42,575 nucleotides of DNA from a virus (taxonomy: Duplodnaviria; Heunggongvirae; Uroviricota; Caudoviricetes). Below are positions 3,001 to 42,575 of the stretch, piece by piece (within the stretch, counting starts at the first letter, position 1; each line of letters starts with the position of its first letter). The stretch lies in IMG/VR virus record IMGVR_UViG_3300035670_000071; one strand, 5' to 3'. Both the position numbers and the translations under genes were made by a program. Under the pieces are notes generated by a model. That model was not told where the DNA came from. It was given only the letters and a program-made list of their open reading frames with translations, and ran no database searches.

Positions 3001-4750
3001 TAGGTGGATACATAGTTGATTGAGGTTGAGCAGGTTCTCTTTCGCTTCTTGGTTTTTCATCAAATATAGGATAAGTTGTTGTTCCAGAATCATACCCGAC
3101 AACCTTTCCTGAATCATCTTTTAAAGGAGTAAAAAGAGTATATCCTTTAGGGTCAGCAACATTTTGTTCTCCTATTTTATTTCCATCTTTATCAACAATA
3201 TATCCTTTGGTATCTACTCTTCCAACAATCTTACCAGACTCATCTTTAACTCTTTCCCCCGCTTTAGGTGGTTCAAATATTGTGAATGATGTTACCATAT
3301 CCATATCAGGAGATTCTACTTCTCTCATTTCTTTAGCTCTTCCTGCTTCAGACTTTCCTTCACCAGCAACAACATACTCTTCTATTCCGCTTCCGCTTAA
3401 GTCGGTATATGTTGCTACCTTAGCGTCCTCTGGAACAACTGTTGTATTAGGATTTACCTTGGCCCTAAGTTTTGCTTGGTCCTCTGGTGTTAACTGCACT
3501 GGTATATTTGTAAAATCTATTTGAGAGAAATCTATAGATACTTCTGGTTCTTTCGCTGTTGTTGGAGCACTAAGAATTTCTATTGGAACTTCAGCATATG
3601 CTGTTTGCATTTCCTGTGTATATTGTGTAGGGTCATCATCAGGTGCAATAGACATACCTGTCATTGTAAATCCTGTGAATGGACCTGCTTGTTGAGTTGA
3701 TACTTTAACATCAAGTTCTTTCTTTATATCATCATATGATTTACCAGTTGCTGATGTTTGTGTTCCAACTCCTGCAAGAACATTATTAGCATCAAATGAT
3801 TGTCCATATCTATCGAGTAATACTGTAGATAATTTATCTCTTTGTGTTTGCAACTGCTTTCCTTTTTTGCTATCTGCTTCAAAGAATCCTTTTTGATTAT
3901 ATCCATTTGCATCGGCATTAAATAATGATACATCTGTTGCTAACTTATCAGAAGACACTGCACTTCTTCCAGACTGCAAATTTAGTGTTTTATTTCTTCC
4001 TGTTTCTGCAGCCAATGATGATGTTGCCTGAGTCAGTCCACCAAACATTAATGCATCTGTCGATTGTTTTCCTGTTGACGTATCTGGTCTTGCTCTATCA
4101 ACTATAGTAGCAGCATTAACTTCTCCTCTTGATTGTGGCCTTTCATATGTTGCAAACGAAGTCATAAAATTTCCAGATGATGGTCTTGCATTAGCTACAC
4201 TTGCTGTTTGTCTTGTAGCTTGTTGTGACGCAACCCTTTCTCTTGCTTGTTGCAAAGATGATTGGGCCGCACCTGCAAGATTAGTCAATCCTACTACAGC
4301 CTTCTTTCCAGTGTCTGCAACACTTCTTCCATAATCGACTACTCCAGAAGCAATCTTCTGAAATATGTTTGAACTACTTCCTGATGAACTTGAACTTGAT
4401 GAACTTGAACTTGATGAACTTGAACTACTTCTTGAACTACTTGAAGAAGATGATGAAGAGCTAACGCTTGGTGCTCTTGATTGTTGTTGAGAAGAAGATT
4501 GCTGACTACTTGAATAAGGAGAAGAGGTAAATACACTTGTTGTAGGTTTAGATACACTTTGCTGTGAAGAACTCACTGGTTGTGAAGCTGGTTTCTGTGC
4601 AGTTGTTGTTTGTGTTACTGTAGTTGCTTTTGGAGCTACAACATTAGAAACAGTTTGAACTACACTTGAGACTCTTGAGCCTATAGCTGCGGCAGCAGAA
4701 GATACTGTGTTCTGTGCTACCTCCTTTGCTTTTTCCCACCAGGATGCCAT
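2..4750 (-). CDS. Giant (>1580 aa, 3'-partial) Ser/Thr/Gln-rich protein with Gly/Ala-rich hydrophobic segments; putative virion/DNA-delivery protein
   Basis: Not in the ORF track. ATG at 4750-4748 with SD GGCGAGGTG upstream. Manual translation (MASWWEKAKEVAQNTVSS...) stays open to the left window edge. Contains a poly-Ser run, an acidic helical middle and GA-rich hydrophobic stretches (e.g. TALLATGVGAFGTAAKSAV, ILGGGAVGYLSAGTIGGLMVGGA). Function is inferred only. Confidence 0.8.
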   Translation of the reverse strand, partial: MASWWEKAKEVAQNTVSSAAAAIGSRVSSVVQTVSNVVAPKATTVTQTTTAQKPASQPVSSSQQSVSKPTTSVFTSSPYSSSQQSSSQQQSRAPSVSSSSSSSSSSRSSSSSSSSSSSSSSSSGSSSNIFQKIASGVVDYGRSVADTGKKAVVGLTNLAGAAQSSLQQARERVASQQATRQTASVANARPSSGNFMTSFATYERPQSRGEVNAATIVDRARPDTSTGKQSTDALMFGGLTQATSSLAAETGRNKTLNLQSGRSAVSSDKLATDVSLFNADANGYNQKGFFEADSKKGKQLQTQRDKLSTVLLDRYGQSFDANNVLAGVGTQTSATGKSYDDIKKELDVKVSTQQAGPFTGFTMTGMSIAPDDDPTQYTQEMQTAYAEVPIEILSAPTTAKEPEVSIDFSQIDFTNIPVQLTPEDQAKLRAKVNPNTTVVPEDAKVATYTDLSGSGIEEYVVAGEGKSEAGRAKEMREVESPDMDMVTSFTIFEPPKAGERVKDESGKIVGRVDTKGYIVDKDGNKIGEQNVADPKGYTLFTPLKDDSGKVVGYDSGTTTYPIFDEKPRSEREPAQPQSTMYPPNAFTDPNYSPYGMTNVPEGYLPSSLDSTGAATEYTNEYGQKLRADEIALKMSVAPEDVVNIAGEPVLKGSDKDVSILGTKYSTIEEREAWERSVKQKFNDGTYKNKQDYLEGEFGNVVTQVPFETALRDLSYAMQVGEKGDTETKFNYDKKKQDDIKDVYLFLSNKYINTEYDNYESQKAQLEEFANLLIDVNSEAVVQVGLNEKAQEYYDTNIVTIDAQINDFVSNNAAAYEYSEETGELVPKLDPEDYASYQNLLTKREKLVGDFESTYLMPLEEQDKKRQEAFEVLRQKYPEKWSEYEKLTPEQQATFFTNEAKELSDITNDKFSTIRNYTEEGLEKIDMLDDVTKKRIEARKFDEEVDWSWANAPAKALNQVNRFGLFVADIGASIGDALITGPAREWKEDKQEDLLQWAQENPEKARELSTELEQGGALKDVVTSGKAMAEFELWRAKKATRSLGDAADYVTGIGPGAYTKYVGKNIVDWEDPLQGERGEGFFGFVEEVNWKGVEGVVDTALLATGVGAFGTAAKSAVLKTGVALAKPVVFAAGGAKLGTEIPKYFGDDESVSLVTSDRTLARGAMQRGMAFEQGAIQEKGNWLQGFVSEMPMGKAIWGEGDAFEVGVAQYYKDKGYSQADAEKAAKQLRKSRTGGEIGEGVGIIGANVGSELLGRHLFAAKQAATGPIVGTSKNAFVNYAQRFGQGFTEVGKAGFVEGTAIMTARQVKQQKLIDTETTILGGGAVGYLSAGTIGGLMVGGATAPATTGFVGKTAQQGAGAVAKYGTYVTDVAELPGDLIATGLEKVFPSVAAYAGGAGGMHVPTGVVSAVVTQVQDKSLSKHEAMSALMSSGATLEEAQTIYSDAKSGILTPTQIASGVRTEYNANLMQQVGLFTAPASLTLTETLPTSPRPSTRTSTYIRADVRPRTNTPASTTTRADTNVNVNVETGTQTDIPTNIEPNIPTGDNLAGGYPGNYAGALGPEKGVSSWVTDNLIADYAGDFQK
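4382..4426. repeat. 3 perfect tandem copies of 15-bp TGATGAACTTGAACT, encoding the poly-Ser tract of the giant ORF
   Basis: Read directly: 4382-4396, 4397-4411, 4412-4426. Confidence 0.9.
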
Positions 4751-36935: not shown

Positions 36936-37571
36936 ATGAAACAAACACTAAGTGAATATGAAAGAAAGGTCCTGAAGGAAACTCCAGGAGATTACGACGC
37001 AGATTGGATGATGGTCCAATGTGGGCAATGCCAGTTCTGTGGGCATATATCCAAGATGGGATATTGGGTCACACAGAAGATAACAGGAAAGAGATTGCTT
37101 GTTGGCACAGATTGTGTTTACACTTTGACAAACCTTGATAGGGCACAGAAGAAAGTATTTGATGGGATTGTAGCAAGACAGAAACACGCAAGGAAGTATG
37201 CAAAGGTATTGGCTTATCTTTTAGAGACACACAAGACTGAATTGATAACAACACTTGAATCATTCCACAGATTCCACAAGACCAGATATGATGTGACAAA
37301 CCAGGATGCTGAGTGGGTATATTATAATTGGGTTTCAAATGAGACCAATGAGATATGTCTTAAGACAAAGATGAGAGTTGCAGATTGGGAACAAAGAAAC
37401 AATACTTATGTTGCGAACTATGATTGGAATGCTCCGAAGACGGCACATAACATTGCAGCGATAATTATTAATAAGATAGAAACTACACGAAGCACAATCA
37501 ACAAGTATTGGCTAACAACATACAAGGAATTAACGGGGGTTGACTTGGCCCCAATGACAAAGGTGGAATGA
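36936..37571 (+). CDS. Zinc-ribbon-containing hypothetical protein
   Basis: CQFCGH...VGTDCV motif. Confidence 0.7.
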   Translation: MKQTLSEYERKVLKETPGDYDADWMMVQCGQCQFCGHISKMGYWVTQKITGKRLLVGTDCVYTLTNLDRAQKKVFDGIVARQKHARKYAKVLAYLLETHKTELITTLESFHRFHKTRYDVTNQDAEWVYYNWVSNETNEICLKTKMRVADWEQRNNTYVANYDWNAPKTAHNIAAIIINKIETTRSTINKYWLTTYKELTGVDLAPMTKVE

Positions 37572-38710
37572 TGAAACATATAATTTATATTTTATGCTTT
37601 TTGATATTGGTGACGGGTTGCACTCAATCCCCCGACAGTATTATTAAACCCCCAACAATTAATGATTCTAATGGGGGGTTGACGCAGCCTGTTATGAATG
37701 AAACTTATGTTCCTATTGAATCTGATTTTGAAAATACTCCTGTCGATGTAGTATATACTTGGGTATATAGAAGTAAGAATCATTCGGTCAATGTCACACT
37801 TTTTGAGGAAGAGTTCCAATACTTCGCTGGGCTTAATAGAACAGGTAATGATAGACAGGTAGAGTTCTTTGTTCCGTTCATTCATCACGAATGGCAGCAG
37901 GATACAATAGAAGACATTGTAGAAGACTTAAAGGCCTACGGGTATGATGAGCAGGAGACTGTAAGGTTGGCCATCTCAATGCTTCAGAAGATGCCTTACA
38001 ACAATACATATGATAGATGGACTTATGCCTACGAAACAATGTATGCTAAGAGTGGTGTGTGTTCAGATAAGACATTCCTTGCTGTAGCTATAATTGATGA
38101 GCTTGGGTATGATACAGTTATCTTTGATTATGAGACAGCAAATCATATGGCTATAGGAATCAAGTGTCAAAAGCAATATGCTTATTGGGAAGATTATTGC
38201 TTTGTGGATGTCACAACACCACACTCATTTATTACGTATGATAATGTTACTTCAGCTACAGGGGAAACACTTGGAGAACCAGATAGAGTATTTGATGCAT
38301 CAACAGGAACTAAGAGCTTTGATGTATCTTGGGATTACTTCCAGGACCAGAAGTTGGGTCGCTATATAGAGTCACAAGTTAACCACACAGATTGGCTTAC
38401 TGCAGTTAGGGATGAGCTTGACTTGGCACTCAAGGACCTGAATGAATATAGAGAGGAGATAGGAAGAATCAACTATCCATCTAAGGCGGCGGCTGAAGCA
38501 GACAAGAAGAACTATTACGAGTATCAGGCTGAATACTATAGGGTCGAGGCATTGTGGGATAGCGTCTATAGTGAGTGGGTAGATGAGACCAGGTGGCTCA
38601 TAGCATATGAACGTGAGTATGGAGTTGACTTAGGTATACTCAAGTATATAGGAGCCGACAGAAGATATGACCTTACATCTACATCCAGTGTGTCTATCAT
38701 TGTTGAATAA
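37568..38710 (+). CDS. Lipoprotein with transglutaminase-like (papain-fold) domain
   Basis: Lipobox LVTGC; putative triad GVCSDK (Cys), NHMAIG (His), FVDVT (Asp); coiled-coil C-terminal half. Confidence 0.8.
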   Translation: MMKHIIYILCFLILVTGCTQSPDSIIKPPTINDSNGGLTQPVMNETYVPIESDFENTPVDVVYTWVYRSKNHSVNVTLFEEEFQYFAGLNRTGNDRQVEFFVPFIHHEWQQDTIEDIVEDLKAYGYDEQETVRLAISMLQKMPYNNTYDRWTYAYETMYAKSGVCSDKTFLAVAIIDELGYDTVIFDYETANHMAIGIKCQKQYAYWEDYCFVDVTTPHSFITYDNVTSATGETLGEPDRVFDASTGTKSFDVSWDYFQDQKLGRYIESQVNHTDWLTAVRDELDLALKDLNEYREEIGRINYPSKAAAEADKKNYYEYQAEYYRVEALWDSVYSEWVDETRWLIAYEREYGVDLGILKYIGADRRYDLTSTSSVSIIVE

Positions 38711-38926
38711 CATTGATGCGGATGAATATTATCAATGAGTGGCCATAAGAGTTAACACAAGTCGGGTCGAGCATACAGCATTTGATTTAGATTTTTAATT
38801 TCAAATTCTTTATTATTTTTTTGATAGAAGCGAGGGTTCTTCTTTAGGTGGGGGATGTATTCTGGTGTTGTGTAGAGCGTCGAAAGTGTGGCTTTTAGAT
38901 TTTCTTCTCCGTCGACAAACACATTA

Positions 38927-39028
38927 CTCAGGTATACCTGGCAAAATAAGTATACTTTTTTTCTCAGGTATACCTGGCGAGATAAGTATACTTATTTAGA
39001 AAAGTATACCTGGGGGTTTAGGTATACT
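38927..39028. repeat. Six GTATAC-centred palindromes at exact 18-bp spacing
   Basis: GTATAC starts at 38932, 38950, 38968, 38986, 39004 and 39022. Confidence 0.95.
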
Positions 39029-39253
39029 AAAGATGGAATTGCAAGTTTCTATAACTATTAAACACTAAGGAGTTTCATCATTCTGGTTGCCGAATGGGAG
39101 GATAAAATAGCTCTTTCTTTCTAATTTTAAATTACTTTGATTACACTCATTTTTCTGGCTGGGGAAAAAGGTCCTTGAGCAAAAACAATGGCGGTCCGTT
39201 GGGTTGGGGGTAGCCAAAATAGGGGGGACGGTGGGGGGTCATTTTGGGTCCAG

Positions 39254-39275
39254 AGAAAAAAAAATTTTTTTTTCT
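39254..39275. repeat. Perfect 22-bp palindrome AG-A9-T9-CT
   Basis: Read directly. Confidence 0.85.
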
Positions 39276-39311
39276 GGCTCCAGGTCCTCCCTCCCAGGGT
39301 TGCATTTGAAT

Positions 39312-39525
39312 TGCAATTTGAATTTCAAATGCAATTGAATTGCAATGTGCAATTCAATTAGGACAGGTGCAATTCAATAGGGGTATAGGTGCAATTCGGG
39401 GCTTTTGCAATTAAATTGCAATTCGTTTGCTTAAGCTTAAAATTGGTGCAATTCGTCGACGTGGTGCGGTAATTGGTGCAATTCAATTTAAACGGCAATT
39501 TAGCCAAAATTAAGCGGTGCAATTC
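39312..39525 (+). repeat. Array of 11 TGCAAT(T) motifs, five as GGTGCAATTC
   Basis: TGCAAT at 39312, 39330, 39341, 39348, 39368, 39390, 39406, 39417, 39447, 39477, 39518 (and 39872). Confidence 0.9.
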
Positions 39526-39585
39526 AAACGTAATATATAGGGCAAAAGAACCGCTTAATATTGGCTAAATCAAAACGGCAACGGC

Positions 39586-39765
39586 ACGGGACACGAAAAC
39601 AACGGGACGGGCTTTATTTTGGGACACGGGACGGGACGACGGGACGGGACACGGGACAACGGGACGGGACACGGGACAACGGGACACGGGACGGGACGAC
39701 GGGACGGGACACGGGACAACGGGACACGAAACGGGACAACGGGACACGGGACAACGGCACGGGCT
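39586..39765 (+). repeat. GGGAC-based satellite with 20-bp higher-order units
   Basis: 21 GGGAC copies; 20-mer blocks from 39621 in the order A B B A B C D. Confidence 0.95.
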
Positions 39766-39990
39766 TTTAACTACTTTATAGTGGTGCGATTTATTTATAT
39801 ATTCACGTCGATTTATACCTTTAGAAACGGCGATTTATCGACGTGGTGCGGTGACGTGGTGCGGTGCTTTATGCAATTAGTAACCACTTAATAGTAATAG
39901 ATTTATAAAAAATGGCTATTTGAACCGCCGACACGAAAATTTAAAAGCTTAAAAGTTTTAATCATTTCTTAAAAATTTAAATTTCAAAAT

Positions 39991-40059
39991 CGAAACATTT
40001 ATATATAAGTATACTATACCCATTAGTATAGTTAAACAATAGCGAGGGGCTACAAAAAA
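39991..40059 (+). promoter_or_regulatory. Early-type promoter cassette
   Basis: CGAAACATTTATATATAAGTATACTATACCCATTAGTATAGTTAA, then SD AGCGAGGGG. Confidence 0.85.
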
Positions 40060-40404
40060 ATGAACTACAAAACATTTAAACAAAACTTTGAGGCGAATAG
40101 CGACGGGGCGACGTTTCATTTAAACGGCAATTTAGCCAAAAATAAAACGGGCTTCTATTGTAGTATAACCAATAACAAATTTAAGGGCTTAAGCTTTCGG
40201 GCTTTTCAAAAAGTCTTTAATCAGGCGACGGCTATAAAAAGCCGTAAAGCATATATAGGGTATTGGTGCGACAAAAACACGGGCTTATATTATATAGACG
40301 TTACCTTTAGATTTTTGAAAATCGAAACGGCAACGGCGACGGCACGGGCTTTTAATCAGTTGGCTATTTTTGATATAGCCAATTTAAGCGAGGTGCGAAT
40401 ATGA
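40060..40404 (+). CDS. Small early protein; G.W.D...Y.DV...A...NQ.AIFD phage family, possibly SAM-lyase-like fold
   Basis: First gene after the non-coding hub. The motif family is recognised from memory; the functional guess is speculative. Confidence 0.6.
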   Translation: MNYKTFKQNFEANSDGATFHLNGNLAKNKTGFYCSITNNKFKGLSFRAFQKVFNQATAIKSRKAYIGYWCDKNTGLYYIDVTFRFLKIETATATARAFNQLAIFDIANLSEVRI

Positions 40405-40547
40405 ACCACGAAAAAATTTTTATTCTCAATAGCGACGGCGATTTTAAAAAAGCCGAAAGATATAAAGCCACGTTGGAAAATCGAGGGCTTAAAGTTGCCG
40501 TCACTACTTACGGGCTTAACGGCGTAAAAATCACGGGGGCAAACTAA
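40401..40547 (+). CDS. Small early protein (48 aa, MNHEKIFILNSDGDF...GAN)
   Basis: Not in track. SD GCGAGGTG, ATGA overlap. Confidence 0.7.
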   Translation: MNHEKIFILNSDGDFKKAERYKATLENRGLKVAVTTYGLNGVKITGAN

Positions 40548-40636
40548 AAACGAAACATTTATATATAAGTATACTATACCCATTAGTATAGTTAACTTAA
40601 TTCAGACGACAAAAACAAAATAGCGAGGTGCTACAA
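40535..40636 (+). repeat. 102-bp exact direct repeat, copy 1 (end of upstream CDS + promoter + operator + SD)
   Basis: Identical to 41310-41411. Confidence 0.95.
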
Positions 40637-40637
40637 T

Positions 40638-41084
40638 ATGGCAAAAGATAAAAAGGCGGTATTAACCGCATATATAGACGGGCTTAAGTTTTCACTTAAG
40701 GATATTCAAAAGACACGGGCAAAACACGGCGATTATAAGGACGAGCAATTTAAAGAACTTATAGCCGACAACAGCGAGGAAATAGCCGAACATTTAGCCG
40801 AACTTAAGGGCGACGTTTTGGCTTCTCTCAATAGTGGCACGTCGTTTTATAAGGATTTGAATTTGACGAGCAAAAGCGATATAAGGAATTTTAAGACTTT
40901 TGTCAATTCAAAGACGAGGGAACTGAACACGGCTTTTATAAAAGGGCTTTGCGACAGCGACGAGAACGACAACACTATAAACCATTTTGCGATTAAATTC
41001 TATTTGCAATATTACGACGACGTTAATAAGATTATGCACGACGTAATTAAGGCACGTTTTGAGGACGTGACGGGGGGCGATTAA
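40638..41084 (+). CDS. Early hypothetical protein (148 aa, helical)
   Basis: Directly after the promoter cassette SD. Confidence 0.75.
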   Translation: MAKDKKAVLTAYIDGLKFSLKDIQKTRAKHGDYKDEQFKELIADNSEEIAEHLAELKGDVLASLNSGTSFYKDLNLTSKSDIRNFKTFVNSKTRELNTAFIKGLCDSDENDNTINHFAIKFYLQYYDDVNKIMHDVIKARFEDVTGGD

Positions 41085-41085
41085 A

Positions 41086-41322
41086 ATGATTTCAAAGCGA
41101 TATTATCAGGAACTTTTAAGCGACACAGCAGGGACACGGGACAGAACCAAAACCGAAACCAATTTATTTAGCTATATTATAGACAGCGAGATAAACGGCA
41201 ATTTTTCGCAGGTGCGGGACTTTGTGAACCGCTTAAGCCAAAAGCAATATAACAGCTTTTTGGTATTTTTGCAGGACAACGGGACGGCTATAAAGCCGTG
41301 CTTTTTCAGGGGGGCAAACTAA
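41086..41322 (+). CDS. Early hypothetical protein (78 aa)
   Basis: SD GGGGGG; ends inside repeat copy 2. Confidence 0.7.
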   Translation: MISKRYYQELLSDTAGTRDRTKTETNLFSYIIDSEINGNFSQVRDFVNRLSQKQYNSFLVFLQDNGTAIKPCFFRGAN

Positions 41323-41411
41323 AAACGAAACATTTATATATAAGTATACTATACCCATTAGTATAGTTAACTTAATTCAGACGACAAAAACAAAATAGCG
41401 AGGTGCTACAA
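41310..41411 (+). repeat. 102-bp exact direct repeat, copy 2
   Basis: Identical to 40535-40636. Confidence 0.95.
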
Positions 41412-41412
41412 A

Positions 41413-42024
41413 ATGGAAAAAATCAAAGAATACAAAAACAAAAAGGACGGGAGAATTTTCAGAATTTTAAGCGACGAGTGTCCCGAAAGCCCGAGAGAGT
41501 GGGACAATTTCGGCGTAATGATTTGCAGACACAGAAACTATATTTTAGGCGACGAGCAATTAAGCCGAGATTTCGAGGGCAGTTTCGAGGATTTGAAAGA
41601 CCACTTAATTAAGGAACGTGGGGCAGTTGTTATATTGCCGTTGAGGTTATACGACCATTCAGGTATATCGATTTCTGTAAGTAGCGAATACCCGTATAAT
41701 TGCCGTTGGGACAGCAGTAAAGTGGGCTATATTTTTGCGACGGCAGAAGCCATAAAAAAGGAATTTTCAGTTAAGAAAATCACGGCAAAGCTAAAGGCAA
41801 AAGTTGAGGCAATTCTAAAGCAGGAAGTTGAAACTTACGACCAATACTTAAGGGGCGAGGTATACGGCTTTGAAGTTGTGACTACAAAGACGTGCAATTT
41901 AGGACACAGCCACGAGGAACAGCTTAATAGTTGTTTTGGTTTTTTCGGGAGTGATTTCAAAGAAAGCGGACTATACGACCACGCCGACGTGGGCGATTTA
42001 TCCGAGTGGGACGAGGTGCAATAA
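41413..42024 (+). CDS. Conserved mobile-element protein with SPREWDN / YDHSG / WDS..VG / YL.GEVYG motifs; function unknown
   Basis: Motif set recalled from uncharacterised phage/plasmid proteins; first gene of its cassette. Confidence 0.7.
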   Translation: MEKIKEYKNKKDGRIFRILSDECPESPREWDNFGVMICRHRNYILGDEQLSRDFEGSFEDLKDHLIKERGAVVILPLRLYDHSGISISVSSEYPYNCRWDSSKVGYIFATAEAIKKEFSVKKITAKLKAKVEAILKQEVETYDQYLRGEVYGFEVVTTKTCNLGHSHEEQLNSCFGFFGSDFKESGLYDHADVGDLSEWDEVQ

Positions 42025-42025
42025 A

Positions 42026-42331
42026 ATGGCAGATTTCAGAATATCCGAAATTGAGAACGCCGAGAAAGACCACGACCACGTTTATAAATTTCATATTGTT
42101 GTGAGTGGCACGGCAAACAAAAGCAAACACTTAAGCATAACCGACGAGGAACTTAACAAAATTAAGGCGGTATTGACCGAGCAGAACGGCGAGAAATTCA
42201 GGACGCTTAAAAATCTCAATTCCAAAATTCGAGATTTTGAAATGGACAACCTTAAGCCGTATAATTACGCCGAGCTAATTAACGAGCTAATTGCTTTCAA
42301 ACAACACGCAGAGCAGGGGGGCAGGTGCTAA
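42026..42331 (+). CDS. Early hypothetical protein (101 aa)
   Basis: Start moved to ATG 42026 (SD GAGGTG). Confidence 0.7.
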   Translation: MADFRISEIENAEKDHDHVYKFHIVVSGTANKSKHLSITDEELNKIKAVLTEQNGEKFRTLKNLNSKIRDFEMDNLKPYNYAELINELIAFKQHAEQGGRC

Positions 42332-42333
42332 AA

Positions 42334-42471
42334 ATGGCGACCAAAACCCGAGAGCAGACAGCAGACAGCAACGGCTTTTATTATTGCCGTTGCGGTATTT
42401 GTGGGCTTAAGACAAAGACACAAAAGAACACGGCAAACGAGGGAGTTTGTTATAGTTGCAGGTGCATATAA
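42334..42471 (+). CDS. Small Cys-rich zinc-finger-like protein (45 aa)
   Basis: Not in track. SD GCAGGTG; CxCxxC...CxxCxC. Confidence 0.6.
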   Translation: MATKTREQTADSNGFYYCRCGICGLKTKTQKNTANEGVCYSCRCI

Positions 42472-42575
42472 TGAAAGACAAAGCTATAATTAAAAAGTGC
42501 GACGGCGAGGCACACAGCAACCCGTTTATAGATAATTGCGGTATTTGTATGCCGTTTTGGGAGTATTACCCGATT
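42471..42575 (+). CDS. 3'-partial small Cys/His protein (MKDKAIIKKCDGEAHSNPFIDNCGICMPFW...)
   Basis: TAATG overlap, SD AGGTG; runs off the right edge. Confidence 0.55.
   Translation, partial: MKDKAIIKKCDGEAHSNPFIDNCGICMPFWEYYPI

What the first reader, a model, noticed from the sequence alone, without database searches (positions are those of the whole stretch)
39300..42575. Right-hand region is purged of extra restriction-like motifs: possible first-entering DNA (two-step entry)
Seen: reading 39300-42575 I found no GATG/CATC, GANTC, GCNGC, CCNGG, GGNCC or GGCC, all common in 1-39.2 kb. Asp and His before G are always GAC and CAC, which raises CpG to about 4 per 60 nt versus about 1 in lines I sampled in polB. 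The gene at 36936 uses the same promoter and SD but has ordinary composition, so the bias depends on position rather than expression class. Knowledge: T7 early DNA and T5 first-step-transfer DNA lack host restriction sites because they enter before anti-restriction proteins act. Inference: this segment enters or is exposed first, expresses small anti-defence proteins, and only then is the rest admitted. The repeat hub could be the terminus or an injection-stop signal. I am not aware of this being described for an archaeal virus.
Basis: partly seen in the sequence, partly recalled or inferred. Interest (0 to 1): 0.82.

Follow-up and report, generated by a model that had tools for sequence, protein, structure and literature searches.

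The report
Graded restriction-site purge in virus DNA
The last 3.3 kb of this probably archaeal virus contig is the start of a 20-25 kb zone, beginning at one sharp border, where many extra restriction-enzyme-like words are forbidden and then re-allowed one by one with distance. This is the pattern expected if this end of the genome meets the host's DNA-cutting defences first.

Summary
From 39295 to the contig end there is no GATG/CATC, CAAG/CTTG, CCAG/CTGG, GGCC, GANTC, GCNGC, GGNCC, GAAGA, CTNAG or ACNGT, although all are common to the left. Nine further motifs are absent from the whole window.

- **Statistics:** the depletion survives amino-acid-preserving and codon-usage-preserving shuffles.
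- **Non-coding DNA:** it also holds in 761 nt of non-coding sequence.

Three related lineages carry the same sharp, one-sided border at the same intergenic repeat hub, so it is not a chimera.

Two relatives show what lies beyond the window. Avoidance is released motif by motif over 20-25 kb, in the same rank order and strictly nested. The extra motif sets are partly lineage-specific.

Four dipeptides (Ala-Ala, Thr-Val, Gly-Pro, Pro-Gly) are missing from 7,030 residues of early proteins.

The best reading is position-dependent restriction avoidance in the leading, first-exposed end, as in T5 and T7-like phages. The many release points fit progressive entry better than a single T5-like stop.

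This scan had not noted the same thing on other DNA.

The parts
39295..42575 (.). Window's share of the extra-purged zone. It runs off the contig end. In relatives the zone is 20-25 kb long.
   Evidence: Zero counts of about 13 extra motifs. Codon-controlled tests, gap scan.
38927..39028 (.). Array of six GTATAC palindromes at 18-bp pitch, on the ordinary-composition side of the border.
   Evidence: Positions. Nearly invariant in relative L009. A like array of six sits in the 50%-identity lineage L015.
39150..39298 (.). Junction proper: G tracts, an A9/T9 palindrome and a C-rich tract. It is the least conserved part of the hub and still contains forbidden words up to 39294-39298.
   Evidence: Sequence. 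Alignment with L009. 30 extra motifs in 38711-39298.
39299..39530 (.). First purged DNA: an AT-rich TTGCA/TTGAA near-palindrome followed by TGCAATT boxes (five GGTGCAATTC).
   Evidence: Conserved in L009. An analogous GAATTGAAATTTCAATTG element sits right after the border in L015.
39586..39765 (+). GGGAC tandem array. It is lineage-specific: the third lineage has a different tandem repeat at this place.
39985..40059 (+). First early promoter cassette: BRE/TATA-like TTTATATA, operator TATACTA-N7-TAGTATA and a GAGG ribosome-binding site.
40060..40404 (+). Early gene 1, 114 aa, no family match.
   Evidence: Syntenic in L002, L009 and the P0130 contig.
40401..40547 (+). Early gene 2, 48 aa.
40548..40637 (+). 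Second promoter cassette.
40638..41084 (+). Early gene 3, 148 aa.
41086..41322 (+). Early gene 4, 78 aa.
41323..41412 (+). Third promoter cassette.
41413..42024 (+). Early gene 5, 203 aa. It belongs to the widespread phage family phrog_6186, of unknown function.
42026..42331 (+). Early gene 6, 101 aa.
42334..42471 (+). Cys-rich 45-aa gene, absent from the close relative.
42471..42575 (+). First 35 codons of the homologue of the relative's 116-aa gene, cut by the contig end.
36870..37571 (+). Control: the same promoter cassette and a 211-aa gene left of the border, with ordinary motif content.

Best explanation
Segment 39295-42575 is the start of the leading, first-exposed end of the virus genome. 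Restriction enzymes, or other defences that read short words, select against recognition sites far more strongly here than elsewhere.

The proposed course is this. DNA enters, or becomes accessible, from the hub rightwards. The operator-controlled TATA promoters just inside the end fire at once. As early products neutralise host nucleases one after another, sites further in stop being dangerous. Each motif is therefore forbidden only up to its own distance from the end, between about 2 and 25 kb. Nine motifs whose enzymes are never neutralised are forbidden genome-wide.

Shown:
- The zone has a sharp, one-sided onset, and the motifs are released in a nested, graded way.
- The depletion does not depend on codon or amino-acid content.
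- The forbidden words are under ongoing purifying selection.
- The extra motif sets are partly lineage-specific.
- Transcription points away from the border.

Inferred:
- The border adjoins a physical genome end.
- This end enters first.
- Early proteins inactivate restriction.
- Entry is progressive (T7-like) rather than a single two-step stop.
For: 1. Zero counts against 20-40 expected, robust to codon-preserving controls, with control palindromes unaffected.
2. Non-coding DNA is purged too: 0 against 40 or 16.5 expected. The 588 nt on the other side of the border hold 30 such words, so the effect is at the DNA level and polar.
Random placement gives 30 (minimum 13 in 2000 trials).
4. The border is at the same hub in L009 (77% aa identity) and in L015 (50%), in independent assemblies.
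5. Beyond the window, relative 1 (22 kb) has first occurrences at these contig positions (add about 0.7 kb for distance from the border): CAAG about 1.8-4.3 kb, CCAG 3.3, GATG 5.1, CCTTC 8.8, GAAGA 12.2 (then at the normal rate at once), CTNAG 13.7, GCATC 19.5, GANTC 20.5. GGCC, GCNGC, GGNCC, CCNGG, ACNGT and GGATG are still absent at 22 kb.
6. Relative 2 (31 kb) gives distances from the border of CAAG 3.8, CCAG 7.1, GATG 8.3, CCTTC 10.8, AGCT 17.4, GCNGC 19.0, GGATG/GCATC 20.1, GGNCC/CCNGG 22.2 and ACNGT 24.9 kb. The rank order is the same.
7. No motif is common near the border yet absent further in, so the sets are strictly nested.
8. The extra sets differ by lineage. AGCT is avoided only in relative 2. 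GANTC, GAAGA, CTNAG and GAGAC are avoided only in the window's lineage. This is expected from different host enzyme repertoires.
9. All called genes of the zone (61 in relative 1) are on the strand reading away from the border, behind five operator-bearing TATA cassettes in the first 5 kb.
10. Precedent: T5-like phages are restricted only through sites in the first-step-transfer DNA (PMC10644984). T7-like phages are restricted only through Type I sites in the first-injected region (PMC12455610).
Against: - No physical end has been mapped. Several contigs read straight through the hub (L009, L015, the P0130 contig). The junction therefore exists as continuous DNA, either in replicative forms or because the genome is circular or permuted.
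- No early protein matches a known anti-restriction family or fold.
- The 23 identified motifs reproduce only about half of the codon and CpG shift, so another force also acts on this zone.
- Directional, timed DNA entry has not been described for archaeal viruses, as far as the searches showed.
- The host and its enzymes are unknown.
- The purged zone of this genome itself is seen for only 3.3 kb. The graded release is read from relatives.
Confidence: 0.55

Rival explanations
1. Headful packaging from a pac site at the hub. Successive headfuls end 1, 2, 3... terminal redundancies past pac, so segments ever further from the hub are the first-ejected DNA in ever fewer virions. Selection against sites would then fall stepwise with distance, without slow entry. 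This variant still rests on first-entering DNA.
For: Avoidance declines with distance over about 20% of a genome of about 100 kb or more. The release of GAAGA at 12.2 kb is abrupt. Contigs read through the hub, as expected for concatemer-derived permuted genomes.
Against: The release points form a near continuum (1.8, 3.3, 5.1, 8.8, 12.2, 13.7, 19.5-20.5 kb and beyond 22 kb) rather than equal steps. The onset at the hub is perfectly sharp, and the DNA just upstream is not purged at all. No terminase or pac evidence was examined.
Confidence: 0.15
2. Cassette mobility. The early genes, flanked by identical promoter cassettes, are exchanged among viruses with different hosts. They must then avoid the union of many hosts' restriction sites, while core genes need avoid only the current host's.
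For: Identical promoter cassettes flank small gene modules. Gene content differs between relatives, for example the extra 45-aa gene here and different genes 2-8 in L015. Leading regions of phages are known to be highly variable (PMC12455610).
Against: A site anywhere in a genome is equally lethal unless position matters. The avoidance sets are strictly nested by distance, not patchy gene by gene. The non-coding hub DNA is purged as well. The gene at 36936 has the same cassette but lies on the other side of the border and is not purged. Collinear, vertically diverging relatives keep the words out.
Confidence: 0.1
3. Position-dependent protection rather than position-dependent exposure. Most of the genome would be shielded in the virion or at entry by a base modification or bound protein that does not cover the 20-25 kb next to the hub, so only that part must lack sites.
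For: Partial-genome avoidance needs some positional asymmetry. P1 DarA/DarB-type protection by co-injected proteins is known (cited in PMC12455610).
Against: No methyltransferase or modification pathway was found among the genes scanned. Known DNA modifications act by sequence context, not by map position. A graded, motif-specific release is hard to obtain from a shield with an edge.
Confidence: 0.08
4. The shift is codon adaptation of the very first genes to the host's tRNA pool, needed before the virus's own tRNA set is expressed. It would not be restriction avoidance.
For: Forcing avoidance of the 23 motifs reproduces only part of the codon shift. CpG comes to 32/kb against 63/kb observed, and the GGC, AGC, ACG and CCG preferences are not reproduced. 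Leading regions of plasmids show codon adaptation rather than motif depletion (PMC13478746).
Against: It cannot explain total absence of specific words under a shuffle that keeps the segment's own codon usage. It cannot explain the purge of non-coding DNA, the loss of dipeptides or the motif-by-motif release. It may act in addition to avoidance.
Confidence: 0.04
5. Assembly chimera, or a recent horizontal acquisition from a source with another composition.
For: Composition changes abruptly at 39295. The segment lies at a contig end.
Against: The segment shares the genome-wide absence of nine motifs. It shares the promoter/operator cassette with a gene left of the border. The same junction is assembled independently in three lineages from different samples. 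The contrast between the two sides has persisted over divergence to 50% protein identity, and it is maintained by selection.
Confidence: 0.02

Closest known systems
Phage T5 / BF23 first-step-transfer (pre-early) region (Davison and Brunel 1979; PMC10644984)
   Same: Restriction sites matter only in the DNA that enters first. That DNA lies at a genome end, carries many small host-takeover genes of unknown function, and adjoins a long repeat-rich non-coding region.
   Different: T5 has one injection stop at about 8% of the genome, and the region is a 10-kb terminal repeat. Here the release of avoidance is spread over 2-25 kb (about 20% of the genome). The repeat hub sits at the start of the zone, not at its far end. 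No terminal repeat or A1/A2-like genes are shown. The number of avoided words (more than 20) is far larger.
T7-like (Autographiviridae) leading end with progressive, transcription-coupled entry (PMC12455610; T7 knowledge of my own)
   Same: It has a fixed leading end, short repeat arrays, then several strong early promoters reading inwards, then small early genes. Only motifs in the early-injected part sensitise the phage to restriction.
   Different: Those cases were shown for one Type I motif in bacterial phages of about 40 kb. Here the virus is a genome of about 100 kb or more, probably archaeal, with TATA-type promoters and a graded series of many Type II-like words. No Ocr-like protein was recognised, and entry kinetics are unknown.
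Genome-wide restriction-site avoidance in prokaryotic viruses (PMC6286503)
   Same: Short palindromes and Type IIS-like words are under-represented. The nine motifs absent from the whole window are a classical, if extreme, case.
   Different: Published analyses treat the genome as a whole. Here a second and third layer of avoidance is confined to one end and decays with distance.
Leading regions of conjugative plasmids (PMC13478746)
   Same: The first-entering DNA is enriched in anti-defence functions and has a distinct composition and codon usage.
   Different: That survey found codon adaptation but no consistent palindrome depletion. Here motif depletion is absolute and reaches the protein sequence.

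Membership tests
Restriction-site avoidance (virus against host restriction-modification) | Specific short words are significantly under-represented after control for composition, codon usage and amino-acid content | tested here: met
   codon-preserving shuffles; Markov and non-coding controls; gap scan.
Restriction-site avoidance (virus against host restriction-modification) | The avoided words equal recognition sites of enzymes present in the host | not testable with these tools
   The host is unknown. No own genome is held and there was no match in species genomes. From my own memory, most of the words equal known Type II specificities (for example HinfI, Fnu4HI, Sau96I, DdeI, MboII, FokI, SfaNI, AluI). 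That is a lead, not a test.
Restriction-site avoidance (virus against host restriction-modification) | Avoidance is maintained by selection and varies with lineage or host | tested here: met
   (1 against about 30 created words). (AGCT avoided only in lineage 3; GANTC, GAAGA and CTNAG only in lineages 1-2).
T5-type two-step entry (first-step-transfer region) | One injection-stop site, so that all site-free status ends at one common distal border | tested here: not met
   The release points are spread from 1.8 to beyond 22 kb in relative 1 and from 3.8 to 24.9 kb in relative 2.
T5-type two-step entry (first-step-transfer region) | The region is a long direct terminal repeat present at both genome ends | not testable with these tools
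T5-type two-step entry (first-step-transfer region) | Sites are absent from first-entering DNA but present and tolerated elsewhere | tested here: met
   This covers the sequence pattern only; tolerance is inferred.
T7-type progressive entry from a fixed leading end | Early promoters and genes lie just inside the end, all reading inwards | tested here: met
   Cassettes at 39985, 40548 and 41323, and five in the relative's first 5 kb. All called genes of the zone are on the plus strand.
T7-type progressive entry from a fixed leading end | A unique physical genome end lies at the border | not testable with these tools
Contigs both break at the hub (L002, L010-L012) and cross it (L009, L015).
T7-type progressive entry from a fixed leading end | A recognisable early anti-restriction protein (Ocr, ArdA or SAM-lyase type) | tested here: inconclusive
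   No Pfam or PHROG function, no PDB sequence match, and no fold match for the 203-aa protein. The other small proteins were not folded.
Foreign island or assembly chimera | Its composition is unrelated to the resident genome and its junction is not conserved | tested here: not met
   It shares the absence of nine motifs and the promoter cassette, and the junction is conserved in three lineages.

The most novel reading that the evidence does not exclude
The genome carries an 'avoidance ramp': a written record of directional, timed genome delivery in a probably archaeal (possibly DPANN-infecting) virus. The distance at which each word is re-allowed would then report how quickly the matching host nuclease is neutralised after the leading end arrives. 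Entry polarity, the length of the vulnerable phase (about 20% of the genome) and the host community's restriction repertoire could all be read from sequence alone. This would be the first evidence for staged genome entry in an archaeal virus.
Probability: 0.4. Interest if true: 0.88.

Novelty: new variant of a known kind. Interest (0 to 1): 0.78.

Why it matters
- **Entry mechanism:** nothing is known about how tailed viruses of archaea deliver their DNA. If this reading is right, a purely computational signature gives the leading end, the direction of entry and the length of the vulnerable phase for uncultivated viruses. That makes the entry question testable from metagenomes.
- **Restriction-avoidance studies:** whole-genome counts can miss or dilute strong sub-genomic selection, a point raised for T7-like phages in PMC12455610.
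- **Protein evolution:** defence pressure here reaches protein sequence. Four dipeptides are excluded from about 7,000 residues.
- **Host prediction:** the lineage-specific word lists are a ready-made prediction of the hosts' restriction enzymes. They could help link these viruses to hosts.

Tried and rejected
- **Own genome:** none is held. The contig is not in the phage collection or in IMG/VR by promoter pattern. Look-ups by identical protein returned only a 1,085-nt identical fragment from another JGI sample, not the 106,575-nt contig.
- **Metagenome scan:** It gave only one 46%-identity fragment.
- **IMG/VR scans:** these gave only G+C-rich bacterial phages with a 35-41% homologue of the 203-aa protein. 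They show no local motif purge and served as negative controls.
- **Species-genome scan:** a search with the promoter cassette found nothing.
- **Sequencing runs:** Read-end mapping, coverage and read laying could therefore not be used.
- **Closed circle:** I looked for evidence that the contig is closed. No homologue of the relative's next gene (667 aa) is on a 106,575-nt contig, and look-ups in earlier notes found nothing. The contig is probably open.
- **Function of the early proteins:** Pfam and PHROGs gave nothing beyond phrog_6186. The Atlas gave only unnamed viral clusters. There was no PDB sequence hit. An AlphaFold model of the 203-aa protein with pLDDT 94 has no Foldseek match in the PDB.
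- **Palindromic hexamers:** there is too little power to add motifs. GATATC and GAATTC are absent everywhere, but only 3-8 were expected.
- **Simple GC3 or compositional shift:** rejected as an explanation. Lys, Phe, Ile and Leu shift towards A/T-ending codons while Gly, Ser, Thr and Pro shift to C/G.

Full report
**1. The observation**

The window is the last 42,575 nt of a 106,575-nt contig, so the segment in question is the contig's right end.

They add CAAG/CTTG, CCAG/CTGG, GAAGA, CTNAG, ACNGT, GAGAC and CCTTC.

At the rate of the rest of the window about 39 GATG/CATC, 41 CAAG/CTTG, 22 GAAGA and 19 CCAG/CTGG were expected. None occurs.

CpG rises from 18 to 63 per kb.

Nine motifs are absent from the entire window: CATG, CCGG, CGCG, CTAG, GATC, GCGC, GTAC, CGNNCG and GCNNGC. 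A first-order Markov model expects between 20 and 187 of each.

**2. More than chance or protein content**

I kept the eight protein sequences and redrew synonymous codons with the usage of the rest of the window. This gives means of 20 GATG, 19 CAAG, 8.4 GANTC, 8.2 CTNAG, 7.6 GAAGA and 5.5 CCAG. Zero was reached in at most 1 of 2000 trials.

A shuffle that keeps the segment's own, already distorted, codon usage is still significant for every motif. Six control palindromes are not depleted.

- **Non-coding DNA:** the 761 non-coding bases right after the border contain none of twelve extra motifs. Forty are expected at the left-hand rate and 16.5 from their own dinucleotides. The 588 bases just left of the border contain 30.
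- **Gap scan:** a scan for the longest motif-free run scores 42, 41.5 and 24.6 for this segment. The background maximum inside 1-39299 is about 16, and it is about 12 in unrelated phage loci.
- **Vocabulary:** the segment uses 926 distinct hexamers per 3 kb, against 1140-1306 elsewhere.
- **Dipeptides:** under the full forbidden set, seven dipeptides cannot be encoded at all (Ala-Ala, Thr-Val, Pro-Gly, Gly-Pro, Trp-Met, Trp-Pro, Met-Met). None occurs in the eight proteins, where 10.5 were expected.

**3. Not a chimera or foreign island**

The segment shares the nine genome-wide absences. A gene left of the border (36936) has the same TATA/operator/ribosome-binding cassette but ordinary motif content.

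Independent assemblies from other samples carry the same junction:
- L009 (77% identity in the flanking 380-aa protein) switches regime at the homologous point.
- So does L015, a lineage with only about 50% protein identity.

A 1,085-nt contig from another JGI sample is identical to 41088-42172.

**4. Ongoing selection**

Window 39998-42334 and the closest relative differ at 133 of 2,337 aligned positions. The same number and kind of substitutions placed at random create 30 on average, with a minimum of 13 in 2000 trials.

**5. What lies beyond the window**

The closest relative is a 23.8-kb contig, read as L002 plus L013 (21,984 nt). It starts at the first early gene and is collinear with the window.

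Along this contig the nine genome-wide motifs stay absent. The extra motifs come back one at a time, at these positions on the contig (which starts about 0.7 kb past the border):

| Motif | Returns at |
|---|---|
| CAAG, CCAG | about 2-4 kb |
| GATG | 5.1 kb |
| CCTTC | 8.8 kb |
| GAAGA | 12.2 kb, then immediately at the normal rate |
| CTNAG | 13.7 kb |
| GCATC | 19.5 kb |
| GANTC, GAGAC | about 20.4 kb |
| GGCC, GCNGC, GGNCC, CCNGG, ACNGT, GGATG | still absent at 22 kb |

CpG falls from about 60 to 19 per kb.

Shuffles that keep the codon usage of the 0-12 kb genes expect 37 GAAGA, 28 GANTC, 27 CTNAG, 26 ACNGT and 21 GGCC, where none is found.

The 61 early proteins (7,030 residues) contain no Ala-Ala, Thr-Val, Gly-Pro or Pro-Gly. 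At the rate of the window's other proteins 33, 22, 10 and 17 were expected.

No motif is common near the border and missing further in, so the sets are strictly nested.

The third lineage (L015 plus L018, 31,152 nt) shows the whole cycle. There are ordinary counts for 4.6 kb, a sharp onset at position 4606, and then release at these distances from the border:

| Motif | Distance from border |
|---|---|
| CAAG | 3.8 kb |
| CCAG | 7.1 kb |
| GATG | 8.3 kb |
| CCTTC | 10.8 kb |
| AGCT | 17.4 kb |
| GCNGC | 19.0 kb |
| GGATG, GCATC | 20.1 kb |
| GGNCC, CCNGG | 22.2 kb |
| ACNGT | 24.9 kb |

The rank order is the same as in the first relative.

The extra set differs in part. AGCT is avoided only in the third lineage. 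GANTC, GAAGA, CTNAG and GAGAC are not avoided there at all.

**6. Anatomy of the border**

All three lineages share this order:
1. An array of six GTATAC palindromes at 18-bp pitch, on the ordinary side.
2. A poorly conserved stretch with G tracts and an A/T palindrome.
3. The switch point.
4. An AT-rich TTGCA/TTGAA-type near-palindrome.
5. Lineage-specific tandem repeats. These are TGCAATT boxes and GGGAC units here, and a different 14-mer in the third lineage.
6. The first early promoter, about 0.7 kb from the switch.

All called genes of the zone read away from the border. The first 5 kb hold five operator-bearing TATA cassettes.

**7. Interpretation**

The words are of the kind restriction enzymes read. 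From my own knowledge, most equal known Type II specificities.

The features established above are these:
- the avoidance is selected
- it varies by lineage
- it acts at the DNA level
- it is polar
- it decays with distance from a conserved non-coding hub

A site anywhere in a genome is lethal unless position changes exposure. The simplest account is therefore that this end meets the host nucleases first and the rest becomes safe later. This is established for T5-like phages, which are restricted only through sites in first-step-transfer DNA (PMC10644984). It is also established for T7-like phages, which are restricted only through Type I motifs in the first-injected region (PMC12455610).

The many separate release points argue against one T5-like stop. 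They favour progressive exposure, or possibly a series of headful ends. The hub is at the start of the zone, so it cannot be an injection-stop signal for it.

I put 0.9 on restriction-type avoidance, about 0.55 on leading-end exposure as the cause of the positional pattern, and about 0.1 on a true two-step entry.

**8. What remains open**

- **Early proteins:** none has a recognisable anti-restriction family or fold.
- **Codon shift:** forcing avoidance of 23 motifs onto the window's codon usage reproduces the Asp, His and Lys preferences. It gives only half of the CpG rise (32 against 63 per kb) and does not reproduce the GGC, AGC, ACG and CCG preferences. Either many longer words are also avoided, or the first genes are adapted to host tRNAs as well (compare PMC13478746).
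- **Asymmetric tetramers:** GATG, CAAG and CCAG match no enzyme I know exactly.
- **Contig:** it is probably not closed, so this genome's own ramp is seen for only 3.3 kb.
- **Host domain:** that the virus infects archaea rests on the TATA-type promoters seen here and on earlier notes of this scan. I did not test it.

**9. Novelty**

Location-dependent restriction avoidance is known in a few bacterial phages. What appears new is the following:
- a graded, nested series of more than twenty words over about 20% of a large genome
- conservation of that series in architecture, with variation in word content between lineages
- pressure strong enough to ban dipeptides
- its occurrence in a probably archaeal virus

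I did not find this described. I class it as a new variant of a known kind.

Noticed in passing
window 1-42575; also L002/L013, L009-L012, L015/L018: Nine motifs (CATG, CCGG, CGCG, CTAG, GATC, GCGC, GTAC, CGNNCG, GCNNGC) are completely absent from the whole window and from every related contig, including the 50%-identity lineage. A Markov model expects 20-187 of each in the window. This is an unusually extreme genome-wide avoidance.
   Followed up: partly
L002+L013 (61 genes, 7,030 aa); window 40060-42575: DNA-level avoidance makes the dipeptides Ala-Ala, Thr-Val, Gly-Pro and Pro-Gly unencodable. They are absent from all early proteins, where 33, 22, 10 and 17 were expected.
   Followed up: yes
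window 41413-42024: The 203-aa early protein belongs to a very widespread phage family (phrog_6186), with more than 1,290 homologues. It has invariant P27 R28 W30, D81 H82 and C174 G176. Its AlphaFold model is confident (pLDDT 94) but has no Foldseek match in the PDB. Function unknown.
   Followed up: partly
window 42334-42471: A 45-aa Cys-rich (CxC..CxxC...CxxC-like) gene is inserted here. It is absent at this place in the close relative, which goes straight to the 116-aa gene.
   Followed up: no
window 38927-39028; L009 about 4550-4660; L015 4237-4345: The array of six GTATAC-core palindromes at 18-bp pitch is kept in all three lineages, although flanking sequence has diverged. The same core lies in the early promoter cassettes of the two closer lineages (window, L002, L009).
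   Followed up: partly
L002 5124-5714 and 7820-8200; L015 12008-12598 and 13975-14349: The purged early zone of the relatives encodes a ThiF (E1-like) and a Prok-JAB protein a few genes apart. It also encodes ParB_N, a GHKL-ATPase/HExxH or SprT-like protein, DUF7694/DUF7715, DUF1281_C and HNH genes. This is a candidate counter-defence kit.
   Followed up: no
window 37568-38710: The 380-aa protein just left of the border has a lipoprotein-like N-terminus (LILVTGC). It has a weak transglutaminase-like (DUF553) match, below the Pfam threshold.
   Followed up: no
window 39300-42575 against 1-39299: AATT, TTAA, ACGT and CTTAAG are enriched about 3-fold in the purged segment, as are CpG-containing words such as ACGG, CGTC, CCCG and GGGAC. 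These appear to be the 'safe' vocabulary that replaces the forbidden words.
   Followed up: partly
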